From an uncultured Fibrobacteraceae bacterium (GTDB lineage: Bacteria; Krumholzibacteriota; Krumholzibacteriia; LZORAL124-64-63), in contig CAZGEC010000009.1 of assembly GCA_964524645.1 (NCBI GenBank), positions 7,403-71,402 of the forward strand: DNA of 64,000 nucleotides, read 5' to 3'. Made by a program: the position numbers and the translations under genes. Every line of letters starts with the position of its first letter. The first letter of the stretch is position 1. The notes below the pieces were generated by a model. The model was not told the origin of the DNA, did not search any database, and saw only the letters and a program-made list of their open reading frames with translations. Positions 4,473-62,690 of this stretch are shown piece by piece.

Positions 4473-4629
4473 AGCCGCCCCCGGCCCCTGCTCGCCGCCG
4501 CGCGCTGGACGCTGCCCGCACCCTGTGCCAAGATGCGCCGATGAGAGGAGCCCTTGACCGGGTCGCGATCCCGCGCCAGGTTTGAGCTTCCGCCCCCGGC
4601 CACCCGCCACCCCGACGAGGAACGTTCGC

Positions 4630-7690: not shown

Positions 7691-7747
7691 AGTGTCTACC
7701 CATCCGTATCGAGAGCAAACCGCAGATAGCACTCCAGGAGGAACTTC

Positions 7748-9247: not shown

Positions 9248-9294
9248 AATCGCGGCCGGGATGCCGGTCCGGCCGGAAGAAGGCAAGAAGTAAA

Positions 9295-9319
9295 GGGGGA
9301 CGGTCCCGGACCGTCCCCC
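9295..9319. terminator. Bidirectional hairpin between convergent cytochrome genes
   Basis: Inverted repeat gggggacggtc-ccg-gaccgtccccc (11-bp stem) in the 100-nt gap between the 7748..9247 (+) and 9349..11253 (-) genes. Confidence 0.5.
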
Positions 9320-9348
9320 GCGTGCGTGGGTCGAACGCGGTGCCCCGC

Positions 9349-11253: not shown

Positions 11254-11581
11254 GATACTACCTGCCTGTTCGAGGAAGGAGTCTGGCAGTCGACCCAGGA
11301 AGAGCCCGTTTTCAAATTACCAAGTGCAATACTATGATATTTAGGGGAGCCATGTTCAAGCGAAATCTGCACAGTTAAGAAAACCATAATCAATTGCAAT
11401 TTCTTGTTCTCCAACCAGTTCCCGCAACATTGCCTTGACGGTGGCTTGGAGACCTGCTGTAATTCCCACTAATTGAATATGATCTGTCCCCGCCCCTGAA
11501 ACGACTTTTTCAGACAGCGGTGACACGATAACCTGGATTTGTGCTAGTGTCCAGCGAGATCAGCTGGTTGCGCGGGATGGG
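11254..11581. promoter_or_regulatory. AT-rich divergent promoter region between two cytochrome genes
   Basis: A 328-bp intergenic stretch of markedly low GC in a ~70% GC genome (e.g. ttcaaattaccaagtgcaatactatgatatttagg and cactaattgaatatgatctg), flanked by divergent gene starts. Confidence 0.4.
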
Positions 11582-12766
11582 ATGGTGAGTCCGGGCCAGA
11601 GACCGGAAAGGATGGGTGTCATGATGCGGCTGTCGACCTTCGTGAAATACGGGGCCACTTGCCTGGTGGCAACCCTGCTGCTCGCTGGTTGCGAGAGCGA
11701 TCTCGAGCCCCTGAACCTGCCCAGCGAACTGACGGTGCAGGAGACCTTCGTGGGAGCCGCCAAGTGCAGCGCCTGCCACCCGGGGAAGTACGCCGAGTTC
11801 CTGGAGAGCGGCCACGCCCACATCCTCAACCGCGTCGTGGGCGGGCAGCTGCCCGCCTATCCCTTCCGCGACGAAGTGCCCTTCCCGCTCCTGGCGGCGC
11901 CCGGCGGCAGCTCCGACGATGTGCTCTACGTCGTCGGCGGCTTCGGCTGGAAGGCGAATTTCGTGGGAACGGACGGCTACCTGATCACGGGCGACGCGAC
12001 GCAGTGGGACCTGGAGACGGGGGAGTACGTGGCCTATCATCCCGGCGAGCAGCTGCCCTACGACTGCGGCGCCTGTCACACCACCGGATACTCGCCCACG
12101 GGCCACCAGCTCGGCCTGACGGGGCTGGTGGGGACCTGGACCGAGGACGGAGTCAACTGCGAGGCTTGCCATGGACCGGGCTCCCTGCACGTGCTCAGCC
12201 AGAGCGGGGAGGACATTAACCTGGATCGCAGCAACGCTCTCTGCGCCCGCTGCCACTCGCGGGGCGTGCCGAATCACATCGTCGCTTATCCACCGGACAG
12301 CGAGGGCGACCAGTTCCTCGCGAACTACGGGCAGTTCGACGAGCTGCAGGCCAGTCCGCATCGCAACCTGACCTGTGTGTCCTGCCATGATCCCCATCTT
12401 TCCGCGAAGTTCAGTCCGGAGCAGGCCATCGAGATCTCCTGCACGACCTGCCACGAGGAGATCGAGATCTTCAACACCGGCGGCGGGGCTCACACCTGCG
12501 TGAACTGTCACCTGCCCTTCGCCACCCTGTCGGCGGTGAAGCGTTCGCCGTACCAGGCCGACGTCCGGACCCACATCTTCCGCATCAATCCCTCCGCCGC
12601 TGCCGAGATGTTCTACCAGGAGAACGGAAACTGGTACTCCCATGATTTCCTGACCACCAACTTCACCTGCCTCCGCTGTCACGCTTCCCAGGACCGGCAG
12701 TGGGCGGAGGAACATGCGGACGAGATCCACTCGGGCGAGAAGCGACCGTTCCTCGCGGGGAGGTGA
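11582..12766 (+). CDS. Octaheme c-type cytochrome lipoprotein
   Basis: Lipobox LLLAGCESD. Motifs CSACH, CGACH, CEACH, CARCH, CVSCH, CTTCH, CVNCH, CLRCH. Start may be an internal Met (MMRLSTF..). Confidence 0.8.
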   Translation: MVSPGQRPERMGVMMRLSTFVKYGATCLVATLLLAGCESDLEPLNLPSELTVQETFVGAAKCSACHPGKYAEFLESGHAHILNRVVGGQLPAYPFRDEVPFPLLAAPGGSSDDVLYVVGGFGWKANFVGTDGYLITGDATQWDLETGEYVAYHPGEQLPYDCGACHTTGYSPTGHQLGLTGLVGTWTEDGVNCEACHGPGSLHVLSQSGEDINLDRSNALCARCHSRGVPNHIVAYPPDSEGDQFLANYGQFDELQASPHRNLTCVSCHDPHLSAKFSPEQAIEISCTTCHEEIEIFNTGGGAHTCVNCHLPFATLSAVKRSPYQADVRTHIFRINPSAAAEMFYQENGNWYSHDFLTTNFTCLRCHASQDRQWAEEHADEIHSGEKRPFLAGR

Positions 12767-12769
12767 GCC

Positions 12770-13699
12770 ATGCCCCGGGCTACCACTCCCCAGCGGACCG
12801 CCATGGTCCTCGGCCTGGGCTTGCTGATCGGGTCGGCGCTGAGCGTCTTGGCCGCAGGCTGGACGCCGTACACGTCTCGCCTGACCCCCCCGGCGGGCGC
12901 GAAGCCGGTGGGGACCGAGACGTGCGAGATGTGTCACGACGATGTGGCCGCCTTCTTCGCCGGCACCGCGCACGAGACGGCGATCGTTCCCGGCACCACG
13001 GTGGGGCTCTGCGAGGCCTGCCACGGTCCCGGCAGCCTGCACGTGGATGCCGAGGGTGACGGCCCCATCTTTGGTCCCTCGGTTCTGGGCCAGCTCGTCC
13101 CCGACGAGCGGGCGGCCATGTGCCTGCAGTGCCATCGCGCCCTGGAGGGAGCCTGGTACAACGGTCCTCACGCCGGCACGGATGCCGACTGCGCCGCCTG
13201 CCACACCGACCGTGCCCATTTCGCCCATGGCGCGCAGTCGCCGGGCGCCTTCCGCCGCGGGGCCGACTTCTGCCTGCAGTGCCATCCCGAGAACGCGGCG
13301 GATTTCCGCCTGCAGTACCGGCATCCCGTTCTCACCGGTCAGATGGAGTGCACGGACTGTCACTCTCCCCACGGCACTTCCGATGACCGGGCGGCGTTTG
13401 CCGAAGATGGTCTCGTCTGCCTGCGCTGCCACGCGGAGATGGCGGGTCCGTTCGTCTTCGAGCACGAGCCCACGGCGGACGGGTCCTGCACTGCCTGTCA
13501 CCGGCCCCATGGGTCCCCCAACGACCGGCTGCTCACCCAGGACAGCAACAGTCTCTGCCTGAACTGCCACTACGAGCCGGCCTTTCCCGTGCTTGGAGGC
13601 GTGGATCACGCGGACTTCCTGGCCCAGCGGGCCCGCTGCTACGACTGCCACGCCGAGATCCACGGATCCAACCTGGACCCGAACCTACTCAAGCCCTAG
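12770..13699 (+). CDS. Periplasmic decaheme c-type cytochrome (MtrA/PioA-like)
   Basis: Signal peptide, then 10 CxxCH in 309 aa (CEMCH, CEACH, CLQCH, CAACH, CLQCH, CTDCH, CLRCH, CTACH, CLNCH, CYDCH). RBS gggaggtg upstream. Starts 4 nt after the preceding stop. Confidence 0.8.
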   Translation: MPRATTPQRTAMVLGLGLLIGSALSVLAAGWTPYTSRLTPPAGAKPVGTETCEMCHDDVAAFFAGTAHETAIVPGTTVGLCEACHGPGSLHVDAEGDGPIFGPSVLGQLVPDERAAMCLQCHRALEGAWYNGPHAGTDADCAACHTDRAHFAHGAQSPGAFRRGADFCLQCHPENAADFRLQYRHPVLTGQMECTDCHSPHGTSDDRAAFAEDGLVCLRCHAEMAGPFVFEHEPTADGSCTACHRPHGSPNDRLLTQDSNSLCLNCHYEPAFPVLGGVDHADFLAQRARCYDCHAEIHGSNLDPNLLKP

Positions 13700-13708
13700 G
13701 AGGTCGGC

Positions 13709-15724
13709 ATGGGCAGCTGCAAGGGGATGGGCAAGATGCTGGCAGCGAGGGTCCTCGTGGTCGCGGTGATCCTGCCCGTTGCGGGCGGCGCGCTCGCTGC
13801 CGAGTCGTCCTCCGGTGAGCTTGTTTACGGCACGCCCATCTACCCGTTCTGGTCGGCGCCCGGGGACAGCGTCGGCGTGGCGTCACGCTTGACCTGCGGG
13901 GCCGGACTGCTGGACGACCACGGCCGGGTGGATCGGCTGGCCGAGGACGAGGGGCTGGTGGACAAGGCCTGGGGCCGCCTGCTCTGGGACCGCCGCAACC
14001 TCGTCGGAAAGACCGATCACCTGGTCACCCACGGACAGTTCCGCAGCGACGACGAGATGTCCGGATGGGCCGACGTCCGCTTCAGCCGGACGGGGAAGGC
14101 CGAGTATCGCCTGCGCTACACCCGCCTGCTGGAATACGACGATCGCACCGCCGAGGATCCCTTCCTGCCGGCGGGTGTGGTCGGGGTGATACCGGGCCAC
14201 CCGCTCTTGCGCTGGGATCGCGTGGACTTCGCCTACCGGCGCGAGCTTCGCCCCGGCTGGAATCTGGAGGCCGGCTACGGCTACCTGGCCAAGGACGGCC
14301 GGCGGGCCGGGCTCTCCCGAGGCATTGTGGGGGCCGACCTGCTCTTCGGCCTGCCGGACGCCCTTGAGCGCGCCACCTGGACGCAGCGCGCCTACCTGGC
14401 CGGCGACGTCCTGTCGGGAGGGCTGACCGTGGACTGGCGCCTGAATCTCCAGGCGGACGGCGGCCGCCAGGTCCGGCACAGCACGTCGGCCCTGCCGGCC
14501 ACGCCGGAAGTGATCAGCGAGAGCCGGCGCGCCGCGGAGAACCGGACCTGGAGCCTCAACCTCGGTTCCACCTACACGGCCGGTCCGCGCTGGCTGCTCT
14601 TCGGGAGCTACGATTACCGGCAGCATCGCGCCGAACCGGAGGAGAGCCGCGGTCTGGCCGGCGGCCCGCAGCCGGGCAGCCGCCTCGTGGCGAACGACCT
14701 GGAGGCGGACGCGCGCATCCACACCGGCCTGTTCGGCGTCCTGTATCATCCGCGGCCCTGGTTGCGCGTGCGGCTGGCGGCGCGGCTGCAGAATCTGGAT
14801 CAGGTGAGCCTCGCGACCGCCGGCCGCCTCGACGAGCTGCTGGCCCGCGAGCACGGCAGCCTGGACCGCGAGCGCTTCCGCCAGGCTTACAGCCTGGATC
14901 TGAGCCACAGCGGTTTCCGGAACTCCCGTTACGGGCTGAACTACCGCTACGAGCGGAGCGACGAGCAGACCCACCTGCTGGAACTGGACGAGTACCTGGG
15001 CGGAAACGTCATCCTGCGCGCGCAGCAGAGCGACCGGGATCAGACGGTGCACGATCTGAAGCTCACGGGTCGCCGCCGGCTAGCGCGCGGGTTGTCCCTT
15101 CTGGCGAACCTGGGCTACCGGGCGGAGGACATCGATCAATCCAACGAGATCCGCGGCGGGCTCTACGCCCAGGGGAACCGGAGCTGGGGACGGTGGCGGG
15201 GCGAGATCAAGCTGCGCACGCGTCCGGTGCCGGAGTTCCACTGCGACGCGGGCTACCTCCTGCTGCGCGAGACCTTCGAGCGGGACGATCTGGAGGGCGC
15301 GCGGACGAGCTGGGACGCCGATCGCCTGTTCGCCACGGCGGCCTTCCTGCCCGATCCACGCCTCGCTCTCTACCTGAGCTTCAGCATCGGCTGGGAGGAC
15401 TACGACATCGAGGGAACGCTGCCGGCCGCGGCGAACGATCCGCTCGTCTACAACCCGGTGGAGTACGGGACACGCACCTACCGGCTGGCGCCGGCGGCCG
15501 TGCTGCAGCTGACCAGGAGCCTGTCGCTCGAGGGCGGGTACGAGCGCGTGCGCAACCGGGACTCCGTGGCCAATGATGGGGATCGCTGGCACGCCCGGCT
15601 GAATCAGCGGCTGGCCGAGAGCTGGACGTTGAGCGCCGGCTACCGCCGCTACGACTTCAGCAACCCTTACCGCGACGACTACGCGGCCGATCTGTACACG
15701 CTCTCCGTGACCACGGCGCCCTGA
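13709..15724 (+). CDS. Putative outer-membrane beta-barrel protein (MtrB/PioB-like porin candidate of a porin-cytochrome complex)
   Basis: Signal peptide MGKMLAARVLVVAVILPVAGGALAAE. 671 aa, heme-free, Cys-poor, with alternating hydrophobic/polar strand-like segments rich in Y/R/D/G. Sits immediately downstream of the decaheme gene with an AGGAGG RBS. Lacks the canonical C-terminal aromatic residue, so the assignment is tentative. Confidence 0.45.
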   Translation: MGSCKGMGKMLAARVLVVAVILPVAGGALAAESSSGELVYGTPIYPFWSAPGDSVGVASRLTCGAGLLDDHGRVDRLAEDEGLVDKAWGRLLWDRRNLVGKTDHLVTHGQFRSDDEMSGWADVRFSRTGKAEYRLRYTRLLEYDDRTAEDPFLPAGVVGVIPGHPLLRWDRVDFAYRRELRPGWNLEAGYGYLAKDGRRAGLSRGIVGADLLFGLPDALERATWTQRAYLAGDVLSGGLTVDWRLNLQADGGRQVRHSTSALPATPEVISESRRAAENRTWSLNLGSTYTAGPRWLLFGSYDYRQHRAEPEESRGLAGGPQPGSRLVANDLEADARIHTGLFGVLYHPRPWLRVRLAARLQNLDQVSLATAGRLDELLAREHGSLDRERFRQAYSLDLSHSGFRNSRYGLNYRYERSDEQTHLLELDEYLGGNVILRAQQSDRDQTVHDLKLTGRRRLARGLSLLANLGYRAEDIDQSNEIRGGLYAQGNRSWGRWRGEIKLRTRPVPEFHCDAGYLLLRETFERDDLEGARTSWDADRLFATAAFLPDPRLALYLSFSIGWEDYDIEGTLPAAANDPLVYNPVEYGTRTYRLAPAAVLQLTRSLSLEGGYERVRNRDSVANDGDRWHARLNQRLAESWTLSAGYRRYDFSNPYRDDYAADLYTLSVTTAP

Positions 15725-16010
15725 CCGGCCCGGGCCCGAAGCGGTGCGAGAATGGGGAGCCTGCAAGGTTCCCATACCGAAAGGGATGCAGCGCCCGCTC
15801 TGCCAGGAATTCCTTCAATGGCTTTCATTTAGGTCGAAGTCGGGCTTGCTTCCGTGGCTCGCCTGTTGCGCTTTTTAGCGACTGATTGATGGTCCGCGAG
15901 CCCGTCTTGCCTCCCTGGGGGCACAACAAATGAGACTTGCGGGGCAGCAGCGGCCCACGTCATCGGTGCGGGGACGGGGCGGAGCCGGTGCCCGGGAAGG
16001 GACCAGGAGC

Positions 16011-17906
16011 ATGCACCTCTGCTGGCGGATCCTGCTCTGCATGCTGCTGCTGGGACTCGGGGCCGAACAGGCCGCCGGGGAGAGCTTCACCGGCGAGGAC
16101 TGTGCCGCTTGCCATACGGGCTCCGGCGGTGACCCGCCGGAGGTGACGGCGGCCGACCTGGCGGGCGGTGTGCACGAGGGGCTGGACTGCACCGATTGCC
16201 ACGCCGGGATCGAGGAACTGCCGCACGCGGAGGCGCTGCCCGCCGCCGACTGCGGATCCTGCCATGCGGAGGTGGAGGAGACCTACCGGCAGCACGGGCG
16301 CGGCAAGGTGGGCGTTTCCCCCTTCGTGCCGGGCTGCGCCGATTGCCATGGCACCCACCGGATCCTGGCCATCCTGGACCGGGATTCCCCGGTGCATCCT
16401 CTCAACCTGCCGGGGACCTGCGGCCGCTGCCACGAGGACCAGACGTTCACCGAGCAGCTGAGCATCAAGTTCAAGCACCCCATCCGCGTCTACGAGCAGA
16501 GCGTGCACGGCCGCGCCACGGCCGGCGGCATCCACACGGCGGCTACCTGCAACGACTGCCACTCCACCGGCGGCTCGGCCCACATGATCCTGCCGCCCGG
16601 CGACTCCCGCTCCACCATCAACCACTTCAACATCCCCTACACCTGCGGCCAGTGCCACAACGGCATCGAACAGGACTACTGGGAAGGGATCCATGGCGAG
16701 CTGACTGCGCGCGGCGAGGTGGACTCGCCCACCTGCACGCACTGCCACGGGGAGCACGGCATCCTGCCCACGGCGGATCCACGCTCCCCGGTCAGTCCCT
16801 ACCGCCTGGCCGAAGCGACCTGCGCACCCTGTCACGAATCGGCGGCCCTCAACGAGAAGTACGACCTGCCCACCGGCCGGCTGCAGTCCTTCGTGGATTC
16901 CTACCACGGGCTGAAGAGCAAGGCCGGGGACAAGACCGTGGCCAACTGCGCTTCCTGCCATGGCGCCCACCGCATCCTGCCGGCGGCGGACCCGACCTCG
17001 TCCATCAATCCGCGGAACCTCCCGATCACCTGCGGCGCCTGCCATCCCGGCATCTCGCCCGACATCGCGCGGACGCCCATCCACGCTACCGCCACCGGCC
17101 TGCGCACGGGCTGGCCGCACTTCTTCCGGCTGCTCTACATCTGCCTGATCGTGGTGGTCATCGGCGGCATGGTGCTGCACTGGCTCATCGATCTCTTCCG
17201 GCAGATCCGCAACGTCCTGCAGGAGCGGCCCCAGGTACGTCGCATGGAGGCGGACGAGGTGATCCAGCACACGCTGCTGGCGGTCGCCTTCACGGTTCTG
17301 GTGATCACCGGCTTCTCGCTGCGTTTCCACGACGCCTGGTGGACCAACCTGCTCTTCGGCCGGGAGGGCGGCTACGCGGTCCGCGGCATCATCCACCGGG
17401 TCGCGGGGGTCCTGCTGCTCCTGGGAGGGCTATGGCACCTGCTGTTCCTTTTCACCGAGCGCGGGCGCGGCTTCGTGCGCGACATGCGGCCGCAGGCGGG
17501 GGACGTGCGACAGTTCTTCCAGATGATCCGCTACAACCTGGGGCGCACCGACGAGCAGCCGCAGATGGGCCGCTTCTCCTACGTGGAGAAGGCGGAGTAC
17601 TGGGCCCTGGTCTGGGGCACCGTGGTCATGGGGATCACCGGTCTCTTCCTGTGGTTCGAGAACCTCGCGGTCCGTCTCTTTCCCAAGGGTCTGCTGGACG
17701 TCTTCCTGGTCATCCACTACTACGAGGCCTGGCTCGCCTTCCTGGCGATTCTCATCTGGCACATGTACGCCACGGTCTTCAGCCCGCGCGTCTACCCCAT
17801 GAACCCCTCCTGGCTGACCGGCCGGATGCCGCGCCGCATGTACGAGGAGGAGCATCCGGGAGCCCTGCCGGAAGCGGCGCCGAGCAGGGAGCCGGACCCC
17901 GAATAG
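16011..17906 (+). CDS. CbcL-like protein: N-terminal multiheme (about 11 CxxCH) cytochrome c fused to a C-terminal diheme cytochrome b-like (HydC/FdnI-like) membrane domain
   Basis: Signal peptide MHLCWRILLCMLLLGLGAEQAAG. Motifs CAACH, CTDCH, CGSCH, CADCH, CGRCH, CNDCH, CGQCH, CTHCH, CAPCH, CASCH, CGACH. Then 4-5 TM helices with conserved His (HWLIDLF.., HTLLAVAF.., HRVAGVLLLLGGLWH.., VIHYYEAW..). ATG 16011 is in frame with track ORF 15930..17906. Confidence 0.8.
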   Translation: MHLCWRILLCMLLLGLGAEQAAGESFTGEDCAACHTGSGGDPPEVTAADLAGGVHEGLDCTDCHAGIEELPHAEALPAADCGSCHAEVEETYRQHGRGKVGVSPFVPGCADCHGTHRILAILDRDSPVHPLNLPGTCGRCHEDQTFTEQLSIKFKHPIRVYEQSVHGRATAGGIHTAATCNDCHSTGGSAHMILPPGDSRSTINHFNIPYTCGQCHNGIEQDYWEGIHGELTARGEVDSPTCTHCHGEHGILPTADPRSPVSPYRLAEATCAPCHESAALNEKYDLPTGRLQSFVDSYHGLKSKAGDKTVANCASCHGAHRILPAADPTSSINPRNLPITCGACHPGISPDIARTPIHATATGLRTGWPHFFRLLYICLIVVVIGGMVLHWLIDLFRQIRNVLQERPQVRRMEADEVIQHTLLAVAFTVLVITGFSLRFHDAWWTNLLFGREGGYAVRGIIHRVAGVLLLLGGLWHLLFLFTERGRGFVRDMRPQAGDVRQFFQMIRYNLGRTDEQPQMGRFSYVEKAEYWALVWGTVVMGITGLFLWFENLAVRLFPKGLLDVFLVIHYYEAWLAFLAILIWHMYATVFSPRVYPMNPSWLTGRMPRRMYEEEHPGALPEAAPSREPDPE

Positions 17907-18074: not shown

Positions 18075-21000
18075 ATGGATGTGATGGCGGTCATCGAACA
18101 GCTGCTCTACGGCTATCATGCGGAGTCGGGCCAGCCGGGTCGCACGCTGCTGGCACGCTCCCCCGGCGTGTCACAGGAGTGTGCCGCGGAGATCATCCGC
18201 TACTGCGAGGCCTGGGGCGGCATCCCCGTGGGTCACAGCTTCCGGCCCGCCCTGCTCTCGTTCCCGCTCCAGGGCGGCATACCTTCGCTGCCGGGTCGGC
18301 TCTTTGCGGTGATCCGCATCGCCGCCGCCAGCGAGGACGGGCGGGGAGCCGAGAAGCTGTCCGTCGGCCAGCTTCTGGAACTCGAATCTGCCGGCGTTCC
18401 GTCGGACGACTCGCCCGTGGTGGCGCCGATTCCTCTCTTCCACGCGGTGGTCCTCAGCGAGAGCGATTTCGCCGCCTTCGGCGAGAATCCCTACGCGCTG
18501 GCCCTCGAGAACATCTTCCTGGACCGCTGGGCACCCGGCCTCATCCTGGACCGACGCGAGGTGCACCCCGCTTCACTGGCTCCCCTGGTCTCACCGCTGC
18601 CCACCGAGAGCGACGTGGACCTGATCGGGGAGGCCCTGCGCCAGTACTTCGCGAAGGGCAAGCTGATCCTGCCGCTGACGGCGAGCGACGAGCAGAGCGA
18701 TCGCTTCCTGGCGCTGCTCGTGGCGGCGCTGCCGCTGCGCCTGAAGCGGGGGCTGCGCTTCGCCTCCTTCGCCGTGAGCGACGCCAACAGCTACACGCTC
18801 GCTGCCATCTACCGCGAGGGCCAGTCCTTCCGCGGCTGGCAGCGCCTGCTGATGGCCCACCTGCCGGGCACCATGAATCAGGAGGCGGAGCGTTACCTGG
18901 CCGCCGTGAAGCAGACGCTGGCCAGGAGCGACCTGCTCGGGCTGGAGAAGCTGAGCCGCCAGAACCTGGGGGAGATCCGGCTGCAGGCCGAGAAGCCGGC
19001 GGCCTCCTCACCGGGAGTGCTCGCGGCCACCATCACGTCTCGCGCTGCACCGGCGCCCGCGCCCACGCCCTGGGCCGCGGCGACCAGCGTGGCGCGGACC
19101 CCGAACGTCGGGCGGGGCCGGCCCGGCAGCAAGCCGGCCGCCCGGACGGGCTCCCACCGCCGTCCGGCTCGACGCCGCCCGGCCCGCCTGCCTGCAGGGC
19201 GCCGCCCGTCCTTTGCCTTCCTGATCGCCATGGTCCTGGTGCTGCTCCTCGCCGGGGCGGCCTACCTGCTCGGCACCCATGGGGGGAAGTGGTTCGCTGC
19301 ACGGCCGGCCGAGGAGGAGGAGACCGCCGGCGCCTCGCTGCTGGGTGTGATCGACGTCGGGGCTCTCTACGAAGCGGAGCTGAACGGCTTCCTGGATGCC
19401 CAGCTCGGCCAGGGAGGGAAGGCCAGCAGCAAGGGGGCGGCCAAGGCCCTTTCCGCCCTGCGGATCGGCGCCGCGGAGGATCTGGGACAGCAGGCCCGGC
19501 TGTTCGTGGACCTGGCGCACGAGGGGATCCAGCTGCCGGCCCGGCCGGAACGCGAAAAGGAGCGGCTGCAGGCGTTGGCCCAGCGCGGCGCTGTGATCGA
19601 GCACGAGATGCAGCGGCTGCTGCTGGCCTATTATGCCTTCGACAGCGGGATCCTCTGGCGCGATCTCGGTGACCTGGAGGAGCGGCGCCTCCAGGCTCGC
19701 TACGATTCGCTGGCACGTCGCCAGGGGGAGGCGCTGGCCAGGATCAGCCAGGAAATGGCCCTGACGGACGTGATGCCGGCCCTTCACGCGGCCAGCATGG
19801 AGGCTACGGGCATGTCGCAGCTCGTGACCCAGTTCTCGCGCAAGGAACGCGACCGCTCCTGGGTCGAAACGACCGAGAAGGCGGCGCAATCCCTGTCCGG
19901 GCATCGCCTGGCCCCGGGCACCGCGGCCTACCGGACCAGCGCCTTCCTGATGATCCGGTTGAAGCGCGCCGAGGACAGCGCCGGTTTCGGCCGGCTGGCC
20001 TTCGCCCGCGACTACGAGCAGCAGATCTGGCTGCCGGCAACCGTGCGGGAGATCCTGCCCGCCATGCGTAGCCATGCCGCCCGTTTCGGTAAGGAGGGCG
20101 TCCCGCCGCTCTTCACCGCCACGGTGGCCTTTTACGACGACCTGGAGCGCGTGCCCCAGGTGCTGGCGGCCGGATCCTCGGCCGAGATGTACGGCCTGAT
20201 CCGCAAGCTGGCCGACAGCCGGGCGCTGGCCTTCGATCCGGCGACCTACCAGGATCACGTGGATCGGCTGCGCACGGCGGCCGTGGCCGTTCTGCACGGT
20301 CGCGGGACCAATCCGCACGATCTGCCTTCCAACCTCTTCCCGGCCGGCGACCGCGAGACCACCCTGGCCTTCCTGCAGCTGTGTCGCAGCGGCGCCGCTG
20401 CCGAGGAGTGGGGGGAGGTGGCGAACCTGACCAGCGTGCCTTTCTTCGCCCGCTGGGCCGCCGCCGAGGCGCAGGCGGCCCGCCAGGCCCGGGTGCGCCT
20501 GCAGGGGAACTTCGACGAGGTCTACCGGGATCTCGGCCGCGCGGCTTCCAGCCTCGCCGGTCTCGCCGCCGCCGGCCAGGACTGGACGGGTTCCTACTTG
20601 AGCCTCCGCAAGGACGTGATCAGGGCGCTCGCGACCTATCGCACGCAGCTCGCGGGGGACTCCGGGCGCAGCGCGCAGCTGGCCCGACTGGAGGCCCTGG
20701 CGGCCCGTCTGGACAGTCCGCTGCCGCTGGTGCTGAAGGCCGTGACGGTCCGGCTGGGGGCCGGAGCCCTGACGGAGCCGACCCAGGTGATCCTGGAACT
20801 CCTGGCCGAGGACGGCCGCTCCCTCCTCCGCACGCCGGCCTTCGCGGTGGGCCCGTCCGCCCCCGCCGGCACGGGCTGGGTCGGCACCCAGGATCTGGAT
20901 CTCCAGATCCAGGTCCGGGCGGGCGAACGCCTGCGGGCCGTGCTCCAGCGCGCCGACGATCAGTCGGCGCTGCTGGTCACCACCTACGAGGCCGAGGGTG

Positions 21001-21152
21001 AAGCGGCCGTGCCCGGCGCCCTGACCCGCCCCTGCTGCGGCTCCGCCTCCGAGCCCGGCACGGATCCGGCGGAGGTCCCGGGCAGCGTCGCCTTCCGGCT
21101 GGACGAGGCGACCTGGCGCCAGCTGCAGATCCCGCTGCCCATCACCGAGTGA
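18075..21152 (+). CDS. Large hypothetical bitopic membrane protein (1025 aa)
   Basis: About 330-aa N-terminal globular region (MDVMAVIEQLLYGYHAESGQPGRTLLARSPGVSQE..), then a Pro/Ala/Arg-rich low-complexity linker, a single TM helix FAFLIAMVLVLLLAGAAYLLG, and a ~640-aa mostly helical C-terminal region. No recognisable catalytic motif. Confidence 0.55.
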   Translation: MDVMAVIEQLLYGYHAESGQPGRTLLARSPGVSQECAAEIIRYCEAWGGIPVGHSFRPALLSFPLQGGIPSLPGRLFAVIRIAAASEDGRGAEKLSVGQLLELESAGVPSDDSPVVAPIPLFHAVVLSESDFAAFGENPYALALENIFLDRWAPGLILDRREVHPASLAPLVSPLPTESDVDLIGEALRQYFAKGKLILPLTASDEQSDRFLALLVAALPLRLKRGLRFASFAVSDANSYTLAAIYREGQSFRGWQRLLMAHLPGTMNQEAERYLAAVKQTLARSDLLGLEKLSRQNLGEIRLQAEKPAASSPGVLAATITSRAAPAPAPTPWAAATSVARTPNVGRGRPGSKPAARTGSHRRPARRRPARLPAGRRPSFAFLIAMVLVLLLAGAAYLLGTHGGKWFAARPAEEEETAGASLLGVIDVGALYEAELNGFLDAQLGQGGKASSKGAAKALSALRIGAAEDLGQQARLFVDLAHEGIQLPARPEREKERLQALAQRGAVIEHEMQRLLLAYYAFDSGILWRDLGDLEERRLQARYDSLARRQGEALARISQEMALTDVMPALHAASMEATGMSQLVTQFSRKERDRSWVETTEKAAQSLSGHRLAPGTAAYRTSAFLMIRLKRAEDSAGFGRLAFARDYEQQIWLPATVREILPAMRSHAARFGKEGVPPLFTATVAFYDDLERVPQVLAAGSSAEMYGLIRKLADSRALAFDPATYQDHVDRLRTAAVAVLHGRGTNPHDLPSNLFPAGDRETTLAFLQLCRSGAAAEEWGEVANLTSVPFFARWAAAEAQAARQARVRLQGNFDEVYRDLGRAASSLAGLAAAGQDWTGSYLSLRKDVIRALATYRTQLAGDSGRSAQLARLEALAARLDSPLPLVLKAVTVRLGAGALTEPTQVILELLAEDGRSLLRTPAFAVGPSAPAGTGWVGTQDLDLQIQVRAGERLRAVLQRADDQSALLVTTYEAEGEAAVPGALTRPCCGSASEPGTDPAEVPGSVAFRLDEATWRQLQIPLPITE

Positions 21153-21289
21153 GCCACCGCCCGAAAGCAGCGGGGAGTCCGGCGGCAGCCGAACTCCCCG
21201 CTGCGCTTCCCTCTGCAACTCTTCCCGCGCGCGTGCGTAGATCCCGGCAGGCCGACCCGATCGCGACCGCATCAGGAGGAAGAACCGTG

Positions 21290-21889
21290 ATGGGAAAGAT
21301 CCCGCCCGCGCCGGCCGTCCTGCCGGCCTGCATGCTGATGCTCCTGGCCGCCCCCGCGCTGGCTGGCGCGCCCGACCGGGAAGACCCCGCCGGAATCGTC
21401 ATCACCGAGGACGGCGAGAACCTGATCCTGCGGCTCGACGAGAGACGCTGGCTCCGCATCAGGGAGGAAGACGGCGACGGCCGTGGTCAGACCGTGGAGA
21501 TCGATCTCTCACAGCTCGGTGCCGTGGTCCAGGACGCCATGGACGAGGTGCAGCAGGCTCTCCGCGGTCTCGACGAGCTGCAGCTCGATCTCCGCCTGGG
21601 CGCGGACCAGAACAGCATCCGGATCTTCGACGACCAGGACGAGGTCTTCCTGGACCTGGGGGACATGATCTCCGAGATCACCGGCAGCATCGCCGAATCT
21701 CTCGGCAATATGGACTGGGAGGGCACCCTCGACCGTGACGGGTTGCGCGAGCTGCGGCACGCGCAGCGCCTGCGGGACCGGCGGGACCAGGATCGCCGGG
21801 AGCTCGAAGAGAGCATCGAACAGATGAAGGATGAGATCGCGCGGCTGCAGCGGGAGCTGCGGCGGCTGCGCCAGCGCGATCGCCACTGA
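21290..21889 (+). CDS. Secreted acidic coiled-coil protein, hypothetical
   Basis: AGGAGGA RBS 9 nt upstream of ATG 21290. Signal peptide MGKIPPAPAVLPACMLMLLAAPALAGA. Acidic middle region and C-terminal heptad-rich segment (ELEESIEQMKDEIARLQRELRRLRQRDRH). Confidence 0.55.
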   Translation: MGKIPPAPAVLPACMLMLLAAPALAGAPDREDPAGIVITEDGENLILRLDERRWLRIREEDGDGRGQTVEIDLSQLGAVVQDAMDEVQQALRGLDELQLDLRLGADQNSIRIFDDQDEVFLDLGDMISEITGSIAESLGNMDWEGTLDRDGLRELRHAQRLRDRRDQDRRELEESIEQMKDEIARLQRELRRLRQRDRH

Positions 21890-21914: not shown

Positions 21915-22646
21915 TCAGTCCTCCGGCGCGGGCGCGGCGAGGGGCAGCGCGAGCAGCTCCCGCGGGTCCCGGATGGTCCAGTCCGCCGCCGCGAACTCCT
22001 CCGGCGCGCCGAATCCGTAGAGACAGCCCACCGTCCTGGCTCCGGCACGCCGGCCCGCCTCGATGTCGTGGACCCGGTCGCCGATCACGACCGAACCCGG
22101 GAAGCGGTCGGCGATGTGCCGCACGATGCCGGCCTTGCTGCGGGCCAGGCGCCGGCGCACGGCCAGCTCGAGCGAGAGGGTCTCGGAGAAGAAGCGGCGC
22201 AGCCGATGGGCCGCCACGACGGCCTCGAAGTACGGAGCGTTGGCGTTCGAGATCAGGGAGAGGGGATGCCCGCGAGCCGCCAGCTCGCTCAGCGTCTTCT
22301 CGGCGCCCGCATAGAGTTCCGTCTCGCCGCGCTGCAAGGCCGCCAGCTCGGCGCGGGTCGAGCGGACCTCGAACTCGCCGATGAACCGATCCTGGATCTC
22401 CTCCGGCACCGTGCGCAGGTCGCAGGCCTCGCGATAGAAGGCGGGAGTCGGCAGGCCGATGGCCGCGGCGATGCGTCGCCGGTCGCGGCGCGGCACGGGC
22501 AGGTCGAAGTGCCGGTAAGCGGCGTCCAGCCCCTCGCCGACCGCGTCGATGACGGCATCCCGCGCATCGAGCAGGGTCCCGTCCATGTCGAAGATGAGGA
22601 CGACCTCCCGGGGTGGGTGGGCCGCCCCCGCTTCACTGCTCCGCAT
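21915..22646 (-). CDS. HAD-superfamily hydrolase (phosphoglycolate phosphatase-like)
   Basis: HAD motif I (VVLIFDMDGTLLD), motif II (LISNAN) and motif IV (IGDRVHDIEAG). Start ATG 22644-22646 overlaps the 3' end of the upstream SelW-like gene by 14 nt; an alternative start is at 22667. Confidence 0.7.
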   Translation of the reverse strand: MRSSEAGAAHPPREVVLIFDMDGTLLDARDAVIDAVGEGLDAAYRHFDLPVPRRDRRRIAAAIGLPTPAFYREACDLRTVPEEIQDRFIGEFEVRSTRAELAALQRGETELYAGAEKTLSELAARGHPLSLISNANAPYFEAVVAAHRLRRFFSETLSLELAVRRRLARSKAGIVRHIADRFPGSVVIGDRVHDIEAGRRAGARTVGCLYGFGAPEEFAAADWTIRDPRELLALPLAAPAPED

Positions 22647-22857
22647 CGAGGATGGCAAAGATCTCATCGTCCTCAGGAAATCGGTTCTGCTTCCTCTTGG
22701 AGAAGGTGAGCCGCCCGTTCACGACGACCTCGAACACGCCTCCACCGGAGGGGATCAGCTCCGGGGTGATCCCGTAACGATCCCGGATGCGTGCCGCCAG
22801 ACCTGCGGCACGTGGTTCGTAGTTTCAGACCCTGCAGTACTCGATGGAGATTTCCAC
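22633..22857 (-). CDS. SelW/Rdx-family selenoprotein (in-frame UGA = Sec at 22825..22827)
   Basis: Minus-strand translation from GTG 22855-22857, with a GGGAGGAA RBS 5' of it: (M)EISIEYCRVUNYEPRAAGLAARIRDRYGITPELIPSGGGVFEVVVNGRLTFSKRKQNRFPEDDEIFAILDAEQ*. A CxxU redox motif sits in an IEYC context, and GG(G)FEV.V.G.L.SK....FPE is the hallmark of bacterial SelW-like/Rdx proteins. Not in the ORF track because of the internal TGA. Lies in the 240-nt gap between HAD and tdh, on the same strand. Confidence 0.6.
22790..22812 (-). promoter_or_regulatory. Candidate bacterial SECIS hairpin
   Basis: On the mRNA, 13 nt 3' of the UGA: cgugccgc-aggucug-gcggcacg, an 8-bp stem with a 7-nt loop containing GGU, at the spacing expected for a bSECIS. 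Confidence 0.4.
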
Positions 22858-22908
22858 GGCTTCCTCCCGCTGCAGCGCAGATCCGCCGCCGTCCGGCGGC
22901 TCGCGGCC

Positions 22909-23889
22909 TCACCTGTAGAGCGTGCCCGCCGCCTTGCGTTTCTTCAGGTGTTCGAGCATGTCCCGGGTCATGCCGTCCAGATCCCAGCGGGGCCGCCAGC
23001 CCCACTCCTCGCGTGCGGCGGAGTCGTCGATCGAATTGGGCCACGAGTCCGCGATCTTCTGGCGGTCGTCGGGCTCGTAGGAGACCTCGAAGCCGGGAAC
23101 GTACTTGCGGATGGCGGCGGCTAGCTCGCCCGCCGTGAAGCTCATGGCCGCGTGATTGAAGTCGCAATGGTGCCGCAGCTTGCCGAAATCGGCCTCGGCC
23201 AGCTGGATGGTGCCGGCGATGGCATCGGGCATGTACATCATGGGCAGCCTGGTGTCCTCGCGCACGAAGCAGGTGTAGCGCCCCTTGTCCACGGCCTCGT
23301 AGTAGATGGCCACGGCGTAGTCCGTGGTTCCCCCGCCCGGCAGGGTCTCGTAGGAGATGATACCCGGATAGCGGAGCCCCCGCACGTCGAGGCCGAAGCG
23401 GCGGACGTAGTAATCGCCCAGCAGCTCGCCGCACACCTTGGTGACGCCGTACATGGTGGTCGGCTTGAGCACGCTCTCCTGCGGGGTGGCGTCCAGAGGG
23501 ACCCCGGCGCCCCAGACGGCGATGGAGCTGGGGATGACGATGCGCGCCATCTCGTACTTGAGGCCCAGCTCGAGGATGTTGAGCGTGCCGTCCATGTTGA
23601 CCCTCCAGCAGAGCTGGGGGTTCTTCTCGCCGACGGCGGAGAGGATGGCGGCCATGTGGTAGACCGTATCGATGGCGTACTTCTTCACGATCTCCTCGAC
23701 GCTCGCGATGCTGGTGACGTCGATGAAGTGGAAGGGTCCCGAATCCCGCAGCTCGGCGGAGGGCTCGGTCTTGCGGCCGGTGGCGATCACGTTCTCGGCG
23801 CCGAAGCGGCGACGCAGCTCCAGGGTCAGTTCCGAGCCGATCTGGCCCACGGCCCCGGTCACCAGGATCTTTTTCATCTCTTTCTTCAT
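22909..23889 (-). CDS. tdh: L-threonine 3-dehydrogenase (NAD-dependent epimerase/dehydratase family)
   Basis: MKKEMKKILVTGAVGQIGSEL Rossmann motif. YxxxK-type SDR-extended fold. Divergently paired with kbl. Start chosen at the Met just before the GxxGxxG motif. Confidence 0.8.
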   Translation of the reverse strand: MKKEMKKILVTGAVGQIGSELTLELRRRFGAENVIATGRKTEPSAELRDSGPFHFIDVTSIASVEEIVKKYAIDTVYHMAAILSAVGEKNPQLCWRVNMDGTLNILELGLKYEMARIVIPSSIAVWGAGVPLDATPQESVLKPTTMYGVTKVCGELLGDYYVRRFGLDVRGLRYPGIISYETLPGGGTTDYAVAIYYEAVDKGRYTCFVREDTRLPMMYMPDAIAGTIQLAEADFGKLRHHCDFNHAAMSFTAGELAAAIRKYVPGFEVSYEPDDRQKIADSWPNSIDDSAAREEWGWRPRWDLDGMTRDMLEHLKKRKAAGTLYR

Positions 23890-24109: not shown

Positions 24110-25351
24110 ATGTACGGGAAGATGAAGGAAGATCTGATCAAGGAACTCGCCGAGGTTCGTCAGGCGGGGCTCTATAAGGAGGAGCGGTACATCCATGGTC
24201 CCCAGGGGGCGGACATCGACGTCGAGTACCCCGAGCGGGCTCCCACCCAGGATGTCATCAACTTCTGCGCCAACAACTACCTCGGCCTGTCCAGCCATCC
24301 GCAGGTGCTCGAGGCGGCCCACACCGGGTTGAAGTCGCACGGCTACGGCATGTCCTCGGTGCGCTTCATCTGCGGTACGCAGGACATTCACCGCCAGCTG
24401 GAGCAGAAGATCTCCGCCTTCCTCGGCACCGACGACACCATCCTCTACTCGTCCTGCTTCGATGCCAACGGCGGCCTGTTCGAGGTCTTCCTGAAGGCCG
24501 AGGATGCCATCATCACCGACGCCCTGAACCACGCTTCCATCATCGACGGCATCCGTCTGAGCAAGGCCCAGCGCTACATCTACCAGCACAACGACATGGC
24601 CGACCTGGAGGCCAAGCTCAAGGAGGCCGAGGGAGCCCGCTACCGCCTGGTCATGACCGACGGCGCCTTCTCCATGGACGGCACCATCGCCCAGCTGGAC
24701 AAGATCTGCGACCTGGCCGAGAAGTACGACGCCCTCGTGGCCTGCGACGACAGCCATTGCACGGGCTTCCTGGGCAAGAAGGGCCGCGGCACGCACGAGT
24801 ACCGCAACTGCATGAAACGCGTCGACATCATCACCAGCACCCTGGGCAAGGCGCTGGGCGGAGCTTCCGGGGGCTTCACCTCGGGCCGCAAGGAGATGAT
24901 CGAGATGTTGCGCCAGCGCTCCCGGCCGTACCTGTTCTCGAACAGCCTGGCCCCCGTGGTGGTGCGCGCGGCCATCCAGGTCGTGGACATGCTCACCGAG
25001 ACGACGACGCTGCGCGACAAGCTGGAGTGGAACACCAAGTACTTCCGCGAGAAGATGACCGCGATCGGCTACGGCATCAAGCCGGGTGACCATCCCATCG
25101 TGCCGATCATGCTCTACAACGCCAAGCTGTCCCAGGACATCGCACGCGACATGTACTACGAGGGCATCTACGTGATCGGCTTCTTCTACCCGGTCGTGGC
25201 CAAGGGCCTGGCGCGGATCCGCGTCCAGCTCTCGGCCGCCCACGAGAAGGAGCACCTAGACAAGGCCATCGCCGCGTTCGAGAAGGTGGGCGGGAAGTAC
25301 GAGATCCTCGGCAAGACCAAGGACCAGATCATCGCCAAGTACGGCGAGTGA
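24110..25351 (+). CDS. kbl: 2-amino-3-ketobutyrate CoA ligase (glycine C-acetyltransferase)
   Basis: PLP-dependent class II aminotransferase motifs ([20 protein letters not shown] with the PLP lysine). [28 protein letters not shown] is a typical Kbl N-terminus. Divergent from tdh. Confidence 0.9.
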
Positions 25352-32374: not shown

Positions 32375-32602
32375 GCTCTTGCACTCCTTGCGGGGGACGC
32401 CGGGCACTCCGTCTCCGATCCGAAATAAACGCCTGTTGCGTCCCGGCGTCGGGGTTCTAATATCGCTCCACGGTTCCATCGGCGCCAGCCCTTAGGCTCC
32501 GGCAGCCGGATGGCGCCGCGGCGATGGCAATTTCTGCCGGATGGCTTATATCACCTTGGACGACGGTTCCTGCGAAACCCACGCCAGGAAAGGAAGGTCG
32601 TG

Positions 32603-33625
32603 ATGGCGATACGACTGGGAATCATGGGCTTCGGCCGGCTAGGCCGGAACATGTTCCGCATCGCGTACGACAACCCGGATTTCGACTTCGTCGCGGTCAG
32701 CGACGTCGCGGACATCGAATCCCTGCGCTACCTGCTGCAATACAGCACCATCGAGGGGCGCTTCGCCGCGGAAGTCAAGCGGGAGGGCTCCTACCTGGTG
32801 GTGGGACCGCAGCGCACGCGGGTCCTGAAAGGGGCGCACCCCCGCGACATTCCCTGGGACGTGCTCGGGGTGGACGTCGTGCTCGAGGCCACGGGGCAGT
32901 TCCGACACCGCGCTGAACTGCAGTACCACCTGGACGGGGGTGCCAAGCGGGTCATCCTCTCGACGCCGGCCCTCGACGCCATCGACCGCATGGTGGTCAA
33001 TGGCGTGAATGACCGGGAGCTGACCGCCGCGGATCGGATCATCTCGGGCGGCAGCAGCTCCTGCCACGCGCTAGCGCTGGTCCTGAAGATCCTCCACGAG
33101 AAGGTGGGGGTGCGGCGAGCCTTCATGACCACGGTCCACGCCTACACCAGCGATCAGCAGCTGAGCGACACCGCCAAGCCCAGCCTGCGCTGGAGCCGCT
33201 CTGCCGCCCAGAACATCATCCCCAACCATAGCTGGGCGCCGCAGGCCGTGGCCGAAATCCTGCCGGCCCTGAGGGGCAAGATCTCCGGCATGGCGTTGAA
33301 CGTGCCCGTGCCCGCCGGCTCCAACATCGACCTGGTGAGCGAGCTGGAGAAGCCGCTGTCCGTGGACGAGGTCAACACGATCTTCCGGGAAGCCGCCGCG
33401 GGTCCCTACCGGGGGCTGGTGGCCTACACGGACGAGCCCATCGTCTCCAGTGACGTCGTCGGCAACTCCGCCTCGGTCCTGTTCGACGCCCAGGCGACGC
33501 TCTCCCTCGGCAACGGCATGATCAAGACGGTGGGCTGGTACGACAACGGCTGGGGTTTCGCGTACCGGATGCTGGAGCTGGCCCAGCTGCTGGGTCGGAC
33601 CATCGAGTCGCAGGAGGTGGCGTGA
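32603..33625 (+). CDS. GAPDH-family dehydrogenase, divergent paralog (catalytic-site variant)
   Basis: NAD-binding MAIRLGIMGFGRLGRN and TTVHAYTSDQ (His176) are conserved. Where the canonical SNASCTTNC would be, the sequence reads SGGSSSCHA, so Cys149 is replaced by Ser and a Cys is shifted +2. Confidence 0.7.
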   Translation: MAIRLGIMGFGRLGRNMFRIAYDNPDFDFVAVSDVADIESLRYLLQYSTIEGRFAAEVKREGSYLVVGPQRTRVLKGAHPRDIPWDVLGVDVVLEATGQFRHRAELQYHLDGGAKRVILSTPALDAIDRMVVNGVNDRELTAADRIISGGSSSCHALALVLKILHEKVGVRRAFMTTVHAYTSDQQLSDTAKPSLRWSRSAAQNIIPNHSWAPQAVAEILPALRGKISGMALNVPVPAGSNIDLVSELEKPLSVDEVNTIFREAAAGPYRGLVAYTDEPIVSSDVVGNSASVLFDAQATLSLGNGMIKTVGWYDNGWGFAYRMLELAQLLGRTIESQEVA

Positions 33626-59035: not shown

Positions 59036-59062
59036 CACGACCTTCGCGGGCGAGGTGCGGCA

Positions 59063-62605: not shown

Positions 62606-62690
62606 AGCGGCGGCGCAATCTGGCCATGCCAGCGGCCCGGGAAGCTGCTACCATGATCCGGCGAGCCAGGACCCAGCACGGGGAGCGATC

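What the first reader, a model, noticed from the sequence alone, without database searches (positions are those of the whole stretch)
22633..22857. Hidden SelW/Rdx-like selenoprotein gene with in-frame UGA and SECIS-like hairpin, overlapping the start of a HAD hydrolase gene
In the apparently non-coding 240 nt between the HAD hydrolase and tdh genes (minus strand), reading through a TGA at 22825-22827 gives a 74-aa protein. It carries a CRVU (CxxU) motif in an IEYC context and the GGGVFEV.V.G.L..SK....FPE core of bacterial SelW-like proteins. A GGGAGGAA RBS precedes a GTG start. An 8-bp hairpin lies 13 nt 3' of the UGA, as expected for a bacterial SECIS. The gene's last 14 nt overlap the ATG of the downstream HAD gene in another frame. 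Stop-to-stop ORF finders, including the supplied track, miss this gene, and it implies the organism has Sec-insertion machinery.
Basis: seen in the sequence. Interest (0 to 1): 0.75.

Follow-up and report, generated by a model that had tools for sequence, protein, structure and literature searches.

The report
Unannotated SelW-like selenoprotein gene
This is a real but ordinary member of a long-known family of small bacterial selenium-containing redox proteins; gene finders cut it to a fragment because its selenocysteine is encoded by a UGA "stop" codon.

Summary
On the minus strand, 22857..22633 encodes a 74-residue protein, (M)EISIEYCRV-U-NYEPRAAGL...DAEQ, with an in-frame TGA at 22827-22825. 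With U replaced by C it matches Pfam Rdx end to end (E=1.3e-17) and passes NCBI's curated "SelT/SelW/SelH family (seleno)protein" model. All 81 related loci I recovered also carry TGA at that codon. These come from Planctomycetota, Desulfobacterota, Acidobacteriota, Gemmatimonadota, Krumholzibacteriia and other groups. True CxxC homologues also exist. The hairpin at 22812-22790 sits 20 nt from the UGA to its loop and has a GGUCU-containing loop. It shares the 9-mer GCAGGUCUG with the E. coli fdhF SECIS, and its stem shows compensatory changes at synonymous sites (0 of 500 shuffles reach the observed covariation). The 10 codons before the TGA show coding periodicity. TGA is otherwise the main stop codon here. 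Public gene calls on a 99.5%-identical JGI contig (identical at this locus) hold only the 34-aa C-terminal fragment. Two points remain open. No selA, selB, selD or tRNA-Sec lies in the 64 kb, so the Sec machinery is inferred. The HAD start is ambiguous, giving an overlap of 14, 26 or 35 nt. Bacterial SelW-like selenoproteins have been described since 2005, so this is a new member of a known kind and of low interest.

The parts
22633..22857 (-). selW-like (Rdx family) selenoprotein gene, 74 codons plus terminal TGA
   Evidence: Translation. Pfam PF10262 E=1.3e-17, profile 1-73 of 74. NCBIfam NF041051 92.9 bits (cut-off 88) and TIGR02174 54.8 bits (cut-off 34.2). 81 orthologous loci.
22861..22868 (-). 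Shine-Dalgarno-like GGGAGGAA, 3 nt before the GTG start
   Evidence: Read directly. An SD-like motif is present upstream of the homologous start in 71 of 79 relatives.
22855..22857 (-). GTG start codon
   Evidence: First canonical start after the in-frame upstream stop. The homologous position is a start codon in all 79 relatives (ATG 69, GTG 8, TTG 2).
22825..22836 (-). CxxU redox motif (TGC AGG GTC TGA = C-R-V-Sec); the Sec codon TGA is at 22825-22827
   Evidence: TGA at the homologous codon in 82 of 82 sequences. It aligns with the second Cys of CxxC in true Cys homologues and in solved structures 2ljk and 2fa8.
22790..22812 (-). bacterial SECIS hairpin: 8-bp stem CGUGCCGC/GCGGCACG with apical loop AGGUCUG (22798-22804)
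   Evidence: Fold. Covariation 0.181 against 0.062 in shuffles, 0 of 500. Shares the 9-mer GCAGGUCUG with the E. coli fdhF SECIS. Only exact match to the family consensus in the window.
22633..22635 (-). terminal TGA stop of selW, with no SECIS-like hairpin after it
   Evidence: The downstream fold has z = -0.73 and an apical loop (ACCCA) without G. Homologues end at the same place, at 72-74 aa.
21915..22667 (-). HAD-family hydrolase gene whose 5' end overlaps the selW 3' end by 14, 26 or 35 nt. Start candidates: ATG 22667, TTG 22658, ATG 22646
   Evidence: Pfam Hydrolase/HAD_2. Weak phosphoglycolate-phosphatase-like NCBIfam hits below cut-off. Junction comparison. JGI calls the 243-aa form starting at ATG 22646.
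   Evidence: Pfam Epimerase. No NCBIfam model is passed. The 'tdh' label rests on adjacency to kbl (glycine C-acetyltransferase, TIGR01822 643.9 bits).

Best explanation
A small (74-aa) SelW-like thioredoxin-fold selenoprotein gene, in which the UGA at 22827-22825 is recoded as selenocysteine. Proposed mechanism:
1. Translation starts at GTG 22857, downstream of an SD site.
2. As the ribosome reaches the UGA at codon 11, the hairpin at 22812-22790 lies just downstream in the mRNA. It presents a GGUC-containing apical loop to the Sec-specific elongation factor SelB, which is carrying Sec-tRNA(Sec).
3. Sec is inserted. The ribosome then melts and translates the hairpin, which encodes RAAGLAAR, and stops at the second UGA (22635-22633), which has no such hairpin.
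4. The product carries a CxxU motif that most likely cycles between selenol/thiol and selenenylsulfide as a thiol-dependent oxidoreductase.
5. The gene is probably co-transcribed with the upstream dehydrogenase and translationally coupled to the overlapping HAD hydrolase.

Shown here: gene, frame, family, conserved UGA, and a hairpin under selection. Inferred: SelB binding, actual Sec insertion in this organism, redox activity and operon structure.
For: - Family membership across the TGA: Pfam Rdx E=1.3e-17 over profile 1-73 of 74. NCBIfam equivalog NF041051 and TIGR02174 both score above their cut-offs. PDB sequence hits to MIEN1 2ljk (1.6e-9), bacterial 2fa8/3dex/2p0g and mouse SelW 2npb, with the U aligned to the second Cys of CxxC.
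- Conserved TGA: present at the homologous codon in 82 of 82 sequences from many phyla. True CxxC homologues exist, and database 'CxxW' forms are TGA read as Trp.
- The part upstream of the TGA is coding: entropy by codon position is 0.89/0.69/1.42, against a flat 1.8 before the start. A start codon is present in all 79 relatives.
- SECIS: 20 nt from the UGA to the loop, within the published 16-37 nt range (PMC10778597). The loop is small and contains G (PMC1088965). The loop region is identical to E. coli fdhF over 9 nt.
- Covariation: the stem pair joining two Ala wobble positions is C-G 49, U-A 17, G-C 4, U-G 4, A-U 2. The covariation score beats 500 of 500 shuffles and every slid register. 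Third-position entropy falls in the hairpin codons.
- TGA is the normal stop in this organism: 27 of 41 candidate genes end in TGA, including selW itself.
- The locus is identical in an independent JGI assembly.
- Bacterial SelW-like CXXU selenoproteins are established (PMC1088965, PMC1794560).
Against: - No selA, selB, selD or tRNA-Sec lies in the 64-kb window or next to selW in any of the 81 related loci. The decoding machinery of this organism is therefore unverified.
- No second selenoprotein candidate was found in the window.
- Hairpin stability alone is not distinguishable from shuffled GC-rich sequence.
- No Rfam family matches the hairpin.
- The window is the only one of 77 distinct sequences with A instead of C at the loop-closing position, giving a 7-nt loop where the family has a 5-nt loop.
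- The retrieval of relatives used the peptide YEPRAAGL, which the SECIS itself encodes. This biases the sample toward Sec forms.
Confidence: 0.93

Rival explanations
1. Pseudogene or relic: a former CxxC gene with a nonsense mutation, or a selenoprotein gene stranded in a lineage that has lost the Sec machinery, so translation stops after 10 residues.
For: No Sec machinery was found in the window. The window's SECIS is the only one lacking the loop-closing C-G pair.
Against: TGA is present in 82 of 82 orthologues, so it is not a private mutation. The frame, start codon, SD site, full-length Rdx match and an 8-bp hairpin with three extra basal pairs are all intact. The locus is identical in a second assembly. 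Sixty-four kb is a small fraction of a genome, and the machinery is not linked to selW in any relative either.
Confidence: 0.04
2. The only product is the annotated 34-aa ORF (22737..22633) or another internal-start product. The upstream similarity would then be non-functional.
For: This is what the gene callers report. About half of the database representatives are similarly truncated calls.
Against: A 34-aa fragment lacks the CxxU motif and the N-terminal half of the domain. The family profiles match from residue 2. Codon periodicity and a conserved start codon exist upstream of the TGA. The truncated calls begin at different residues, which is what an annotation artefact would produce.
Confidence: 0.02
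3. SECIS-independent read-through or reassigned UGA: UGA is read as Trp, Gly or Cys by a suppressor or an alternative genetic code, and the hairpin merely reflects the conserved peptide RAAGLA.
For: Some database entries translate this codon as Trp.
Against: Those 'W' entries have TGA in their DNA. In this window 27 of 41 candidate genes end in TGA, so UGA is a stop here. The stem covaries at synonymous third positions, which peptide conservation cannot explain.
Confidence: 0.01

Closest known systems
Bacterial SelW-like selenoproteins (Pfam Rdx PF10262; NCBIfam TIGR02174 'CXXU_selWTH' and NF041051 'SelT/SelW/SelH family (seleno)protein')
   Same: About 70-75 aa; N-terminal IEYCxxU motif; GGxFEV...FSK...RFPE core; in-frame UGA followed directly by an in-ORF hairpin with a GGUCU loop. 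The family was the most abundant selenoprotein family in the Sargasso Sea data and is reported in Geobacter, Desulfotalea, Desulfotomaculum and Symbiobacterium (PMC1088965, PMC1794560).
   Different: Nothing fundamental. The best identity to any GTDB representative genome is 71%. The hairpin has A in place of the loop-closing C and three extra basal pairs. The 3' end overlaps a HAD gene, seen only in the closest relatives.
E. coli fdhF SECIS, the experimentally characterised bacterial SECIS
   Same: A hairpin inside the ORF immediately 3' of the UGA. The 9-mer GCAGGUCUG spanning the apical loop is identical.
   Different: GGUC begins at nt 25 from the U of UGA, against nt 22 in fdhF, which is one codon further. 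The window has 8 contiguous pairs, whereas fdhF's predicted stem is shorter and interrupted. From my own knowledge, fdhF has a bulged U17 that contributes to SelB recognition; the window's predicted stem shows no bulge.
Mammalian selenoprotein W (PDB 2npb) and MIEN1/C17orf37 (PDB 2ljk)
   Same: The same Rdx domain, with CxxU (SelW) or CxxC (MIEN1) at the equivalent position.
   Different: Eukaryotic Sec insertion uses a SECIS in the 3' UTR rather than inside the ORF (PMC1088965). Sequence similarity is modest (E=1.6e-9 and 8e-3).

Membership tests
Rdx / SelW-like protein family | Full-length match to the family profile above the curated threshold | tested here: met
   PF10262 64.2 bits (cut-off 22.6), profile 1-73 of 74. 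TIGR02174 54.8 bits (cut-off 34.2) and NF041051 92.9 bits (cut-off 88).
Rdx / SelW-like protein family | CxxC or CxxU redox motif near the N-terminus | tested here: met
   C8-R-V-U11. It aligns with CEPC of 2ljk and CTQC of 2fa8 and with CxxC in 11 representative homologues.
Rdx / SelW-like protein family | Thioredoxin-like fold | not tested
The fold is inferred from sequence matches to solved members.
Bacterial SECIS element | Stem-loop inside the ORF immediately downstream of the UGA, with 16-37 nt between the UGA and the apical loop (PMC10778597) | tested here: met
   12 nt to the stem and 20 nt to the loop.
Bacterial SECIS element | Small apical loop containing a conserved G (PMC1088965) | tested here: met
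   Loop AGGUCUG. The family loops are GGUCU in 58 of 77, AGUUU in 9 and GGGCU in 7. The window's loop region matches fdhF over the shared 9-mer GCAGGUCUG.
Bacterial SECIS element | Structure conserved by compensatory change among orthologues | tested here: met
   92% of cells are paired. The pair at columns 21 and 33 uses C-G, U-A, G-C, U-G and A-U. Covariation 0.181 against 0.062, 0 of 500 shuffles, and it collapses when partners are slid.
Bacterial SECIS element | Binds SelB and directs Sec insertion | not testable with these tools
   Needs binding or reporter assays.
Bacterial SECIS element | Match to a curated RNA family model | tested here: not met
   No Rfam hit at the gathering threshold or at E<=10. 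I did not check whether Rfam holds a model for this in-ORF SECIS type, so this weighs little.
Sec-decoding trait of the host organism | selA, selB, selD and tRNA-Sec (selC) present in the genome | not testable with these tools
   None in the 64-kb window by ARAGORN, by Pfam on about 47 candidate genes, or by tblastn with E. coli SelA/B/D. The rest of the genome is not available.

The most novel reading that the evidence does not exclude
In this lineage, selW is translationally coupled to the overlapping HAD-family phosphatase. The overlap is conserved in the window, L001 and L003; L006 has a 4-nt GTGA overlap. This would make the two a functional pair, for example a selenoprotein that redox-regulates or services a phosphatase, and would give a first handle on the unknown function of bacterial SelW. 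Separately, the window's unique SECIS (7-nt loop, loop-closing pair lost, three basal pairs gained) could reflect drift tolerated by a SelB with relaxed specificity.
Probability: 0.08. Interest if true: 0.4.

Novelty: new member of a known kind. Interest (0 to 1): 0.15.

Why it matters
The practical value is in annotation. The public gene call at this locus is a meaningless 34-aa fragment. About half of the 150 best database representatives of this family are similarly truncated, and others carry a spurious Trp at the Sec position. Correcting the call marks this uncultured, GC-rich bacterium as a probable selenium user. It belongs to the FCB-type group and is closest to MAGs labelled Fibrobacteraceae and Krumholzibacteriia. 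The comparative set also gives a clean example of an RNA structure constraining synonymous sites within a coding region. It does not reveal a new mechanism or a new family.

Tried and rejected
- Rfam, at gathering threshold and at E<=10 on the locus: no SECIS family hit, only noise.
- Single-sequence fold significance: z = -1.1, uninformative in 68% GC sequence.
- Word-indexed protein search with the U-to-C protein: one hit only, a 45-aa truncated call.
I used the exact 63 residues after the UGA for the search. No fold model was made.
- Exact look-up of the 34-aa fragment: not on record. The source was traced through Kbl instead.
- tRNA-Sec near selW in relatives: none. The surprisingly low tRNA count (2 in 1.24 Mb) was confirmed by an independent ARAGORN run.
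- SelA, SelB and SelD from E. coli by tblastn against the window and all loci: nothing.
- Other in-frame-TGA candidates in the window: five, all antisense shadows or ordinary gene junctions. The abutting same-frame ORFs are back-to-back genes, each with its own RBS and ATG.
- Tdh-SelW read-through fusion: tdh's TGA is in frame with selW and is followed by a GCCGCC-GGAC-GGCGGC hairpin. Rejected, because in L003 tdh ends in TAG, lies in another frame, and has a different hairpin.
- Conserved neighbour analysis across 82 loci: no partner is shared across phyla, only lineage-level synteny.
- Sigma-70 promoter and intrinsic terminator scan: nothing on the minus strand around selW.
- Literature search for the GGUCU loop in SelB structural papers: nothing useful.

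Full report
**What is in the sequence.** On the minus strand, GTG 22857-22855 is preceded by GGGAGGAA (22868-22861). It opens a frame that reads V/M-EISIEYCRV, then TGA (22827-22825), then NYEPRAAGLAARIRDRYGITPELIPSGGGVFEVVVNGRLTFSKRKQNRFPEDDEIFAILDAEQ, and ends at TGA 22635-22633. GTG 22857 is the first canonical start after the upstream in-frame stop. A mechanical ORF list shows only the 34-aa piece at 22633..22737. The hairpin CGUGCCGC-AGGUCUG-GCGGCACG occupies 22812-22790. There are 12 nt between the UGA and the stem and 20 nt between the UGA and the loop.

**Is it more than chance?** With U written as C, the 74-mer matches Pfam Rdx (PF10262) at E=1.3e-17 over profile positions 1-73 of 74, so the match runs across the TGA. 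It also passes two curated NCBI models: NF041051 "SelT/SelW/SelH family (seleno)protein" (92.9 bits, cut-off 88) and TIGR02174 "CXXU_selWTH". PDB sequence hits include MIEN1 (2ljk), bacterial Rdx proteins (2fa8, 3dex, 2p0g) and mouse SelW (2npb). In the alignments, the U position falls on the second Cys of their CxxC. The family SECIS consensus GCNGCNGGTCTGGCNGC has a single exact match in 64 kb, at 22793-22809 on the minus strand. The hairpin's thermodynamic stability is not significant on its own in this 68% GC DNA (z = -1.1), and Rfam has no matching model.

**Comparative evidence for the TGA.** A scan of one genome per GTDB species returned 291 confirmed relatives, of which the best 80 were kept. 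One further JGI contig came from the protein search. All 82 sequences, the window included, have TGA at the homologous codon, within a conserved I-E-Y-C-x-x-U-N-Y-E-P-R-A-A-G-L context. The sample is biased toward Sec forms, because one retrieval pattern was the SECIS-encoded peptide YEPRAAGL. I therefore also ran an exhaustive HMMER search with the exact 63 residues after the UGA. Among the best 150 representatives:
- about half are truncated calls that start after the TGA;
- about 25 show "CxxW", and I verified for P0007 that the DNA has TGA followed by a hairpin;
- 11 are true CxxC proteins;
- a clade of longer proteins has CxxG, CxxS or CxxA, and the Gly was verified as real for P0005.

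The Sec codon therefore sits where relatives have a redox Cys.

**The upstream piece is translated.** Across 78 distinct sequences, the nine codons between the start and the TGA have per-position entropies of 0.89, 0.69 and 1.42. The 30 nt before the start are flat at 1.82, 1.76 and 1.78. All 79 relatives have a start codon at the homologous position (ATG 69, GTG 8, TTG 2), and 71 have an SD-like motif.

**The hairpin is under selection as RNA.** In 77 distinct 48-mers, the six-pair stem (columns 19-24 with 30-35) is paired in 92% of cells. The pair at columns 21 and 33 joins the third positions of two Ala codons, where any base is synonymous. It occurs as C-G 49, U-A 17, G-C 4, U-G 4 and A-U 2, with one mismatch. 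The covariation score is 0.181 against 0.062 for shuffles (0 of 500 reach it), and it collapses when the 3' partners are slid. Third-position entropy drops to 0.82 in the hairpin codons, compared with 1.26-1.77 in the flanking codons. The family loop is GGUCU in 58 of 77 sequences. The window is the only sequence with A at the loop-closing position, which gives AGGUCUG, and the only one with three additional basal pairs.

Compared directly with E. coli K-12 fdhF (Sec codon 140), the window shares the 9-mer GCAGGUCUG across the apical loop. GGUC starts at nt 25 in the window and nt 22 in fdhF. [quoted passage not shown]

**UGA is otherwise a stop here.** Of 41 candidate genes, 27 end in TGA, 14 in TAG and none in TAA. 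selW itself ends in TGA, and no SECIS-like element follows that stop. Recoding is therefore local and depends on the hairpin. It is not a property of the genetic code in this organism.

**Sec machinery.** ARAGORN finds no tRNA in the window. Pfam scans of about 47 candidate genes and tblastn with E. coli SelA, SelB and SelD find nothing in the window or in 1.24 Mb of related loci. The machinery is therefore simply not linked to selW. No second selenoprotein candidate is present in the window. That this organism decodes Sec is an inference from the intact, conserved recoding signals.

**Context.** The order on the minus strand is dehydrogenase ("tdh", 22909-23889), a 51-nt spacer, selW, then an overlapping HAD hydrolase. 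kbl is divergent at 24110-25351. The same kbl, tdh, selW, HAD order occurs in L003, a MAG labelled Fibrobacteraceae, with Tdh 86% and Kbl 88% identical. The HAD gene follows selW only in the four closest relatives.

The HAD start is ambiguous. ATG 22667, TTG 22658 and ATG 22646 are all in frame. Only the TTG is conserved in L001 and L003. L006 overlaps by 4 nt (GTGA), and L002 has a 10-nt gap. JGI calls the ATG 22646 form.

Across all 82 loci, no neighbour is shared between phyla. A set of Krumholzibacteriia, Gemmatimonadales and unclassified MAGs shares a block made of a ParA-like gene, selW, and a convergent pair of proteins with no Pfam match. No sigma-70 promoter or intrinsic terminator is detected on the minus strand here.

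**Provenance and annotation status.** JGI metagenome 3300031692, contig Ga0315536_1003610, is 99.5% identical over 4.3 kb and identical at the selW locus. Its gene calls include only the 34-aa Rdx fragment.

**Comparison with what is known.** SelW-like is an established bacterial selenoprotein family with a CXXU motif. It was the most abundant family in the Sargasso Sea selenoproteome, with 48 Sec and 7 Cys forms. It is recorded in Geobacter sulfurreducens, Desulfotalea psychrophila, Desulfotomaculum reducens, Symbiobacterium thermophilum and others, and Sec has been proposed as its ancestral state (PMC1088965, PMC1794560). NCBI maintains a curated "(seleno)protein" model for it. This gene meets every defining feature I could test. 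The fold and actual Sec insertion were not tested.

**Verdict.** This is a new, previously mis-annotated member of a well-known family that uses a well-known mechanism. Interest is low.

Noticed in passing
window 22885-22911 (minus strand): The tdh stop is a TGA in the same frame as selW (18 codons, no stop between). It is followed 10 nt later by a GCCGCC-GGAC-GGCGGC hairpin (22900-22885) that resembles the family SECIS stem. In L003, tdh ends in TAG, lies in another frame, and has a different stem-loop, so this looks coincidental.
   Followed up: yes
window 18075-21889 (plus strand): A 1025-aa ORF (18075-21152) and a 246-aa ORF (21149-21889) have no Pfam match. Homologues of this pair lie convergent to selW in about 10 related MAG loci, including L003, L004, L005, L008, L009 and L025.
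   Followed up: partly
window 21240-21258: The window has 19 nt that are absent from the otherwise 99.5%-identical JGI contig L088. The indel lies inside the 246-aa ORF and is not a multiple of three. JGI calls a 199-aa product there, so one of the two assemblies has a frameshift or a real strain variant.
   Followed up: no
window 58881-59016 (plus strand) and downstream to 63338: A cobalamin riboswitch (Rfam RF00174, 76.5 bits) lies directly upstream of a TonB-dependent receptor (58928-61159). A FlgD_ig-domain protein and a cobalamin adenosyltransferase (62466-63338) follow.
   Followed up: no
window 2-17906: A cluster of six multihaem cytochrome c genes (cytochrome c7/c3, MtrC/MtrF-like, NapC/NirT-like). 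One is fused to a cytochrome b561 domain (15879-17906). This suggests an extracellular or periplasmic electron-transfer module.
   Followed up: no
window 32429-34626 (plus strand): Two adjacent glyceraldehyde-3-phosphate dehydrogenase paralogues.
   Followed up: no
proteins P0004, P0005, P0016, P0026, P0039 and similar; loci L084, L085: A clade of longer (100-150 aa) Rdx-like proteins has an N-terminal extension, a C-terminal FYHV motif, and Gly, Ser or Ala where the Sec or Cys would be. The Gly is a real codon in P0005. These appear to be non-CxxC relatives of SelW-like proteins.
   Followed up: partly
protein P0007 / L083 249-467, and about 25 other database representatives: Public protein collections hold SelW-like entries with Trp at the Sec position. 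The DNA has TGA followed by a hairpin, so the gene caller read the TGA as Trp.
   Followed up: yes
window 20018-20034 (plus strand): A one-mismatch match to the family SECIS consensus (GCAGCAGATCTGGCTGC, a palindrome) lies inside the 1025-aa ORF. That ORF runs 18075-21152 with no internal stop, so there is no in-frame TGA upstream of the match; it is probably chance.
   Followed up: partly
L068, L069, L071 (Desulfobulbaceae), SECIS region: The amino-acid change Ala to Ser (GCC to UCC) in the 5' arm is accompanied by Ala to Gly (GCG to GGG) in the 3' arm. This keeps a U-G pair, so it is a compensatory change at non-synonymous sites.
   Followed up: partly
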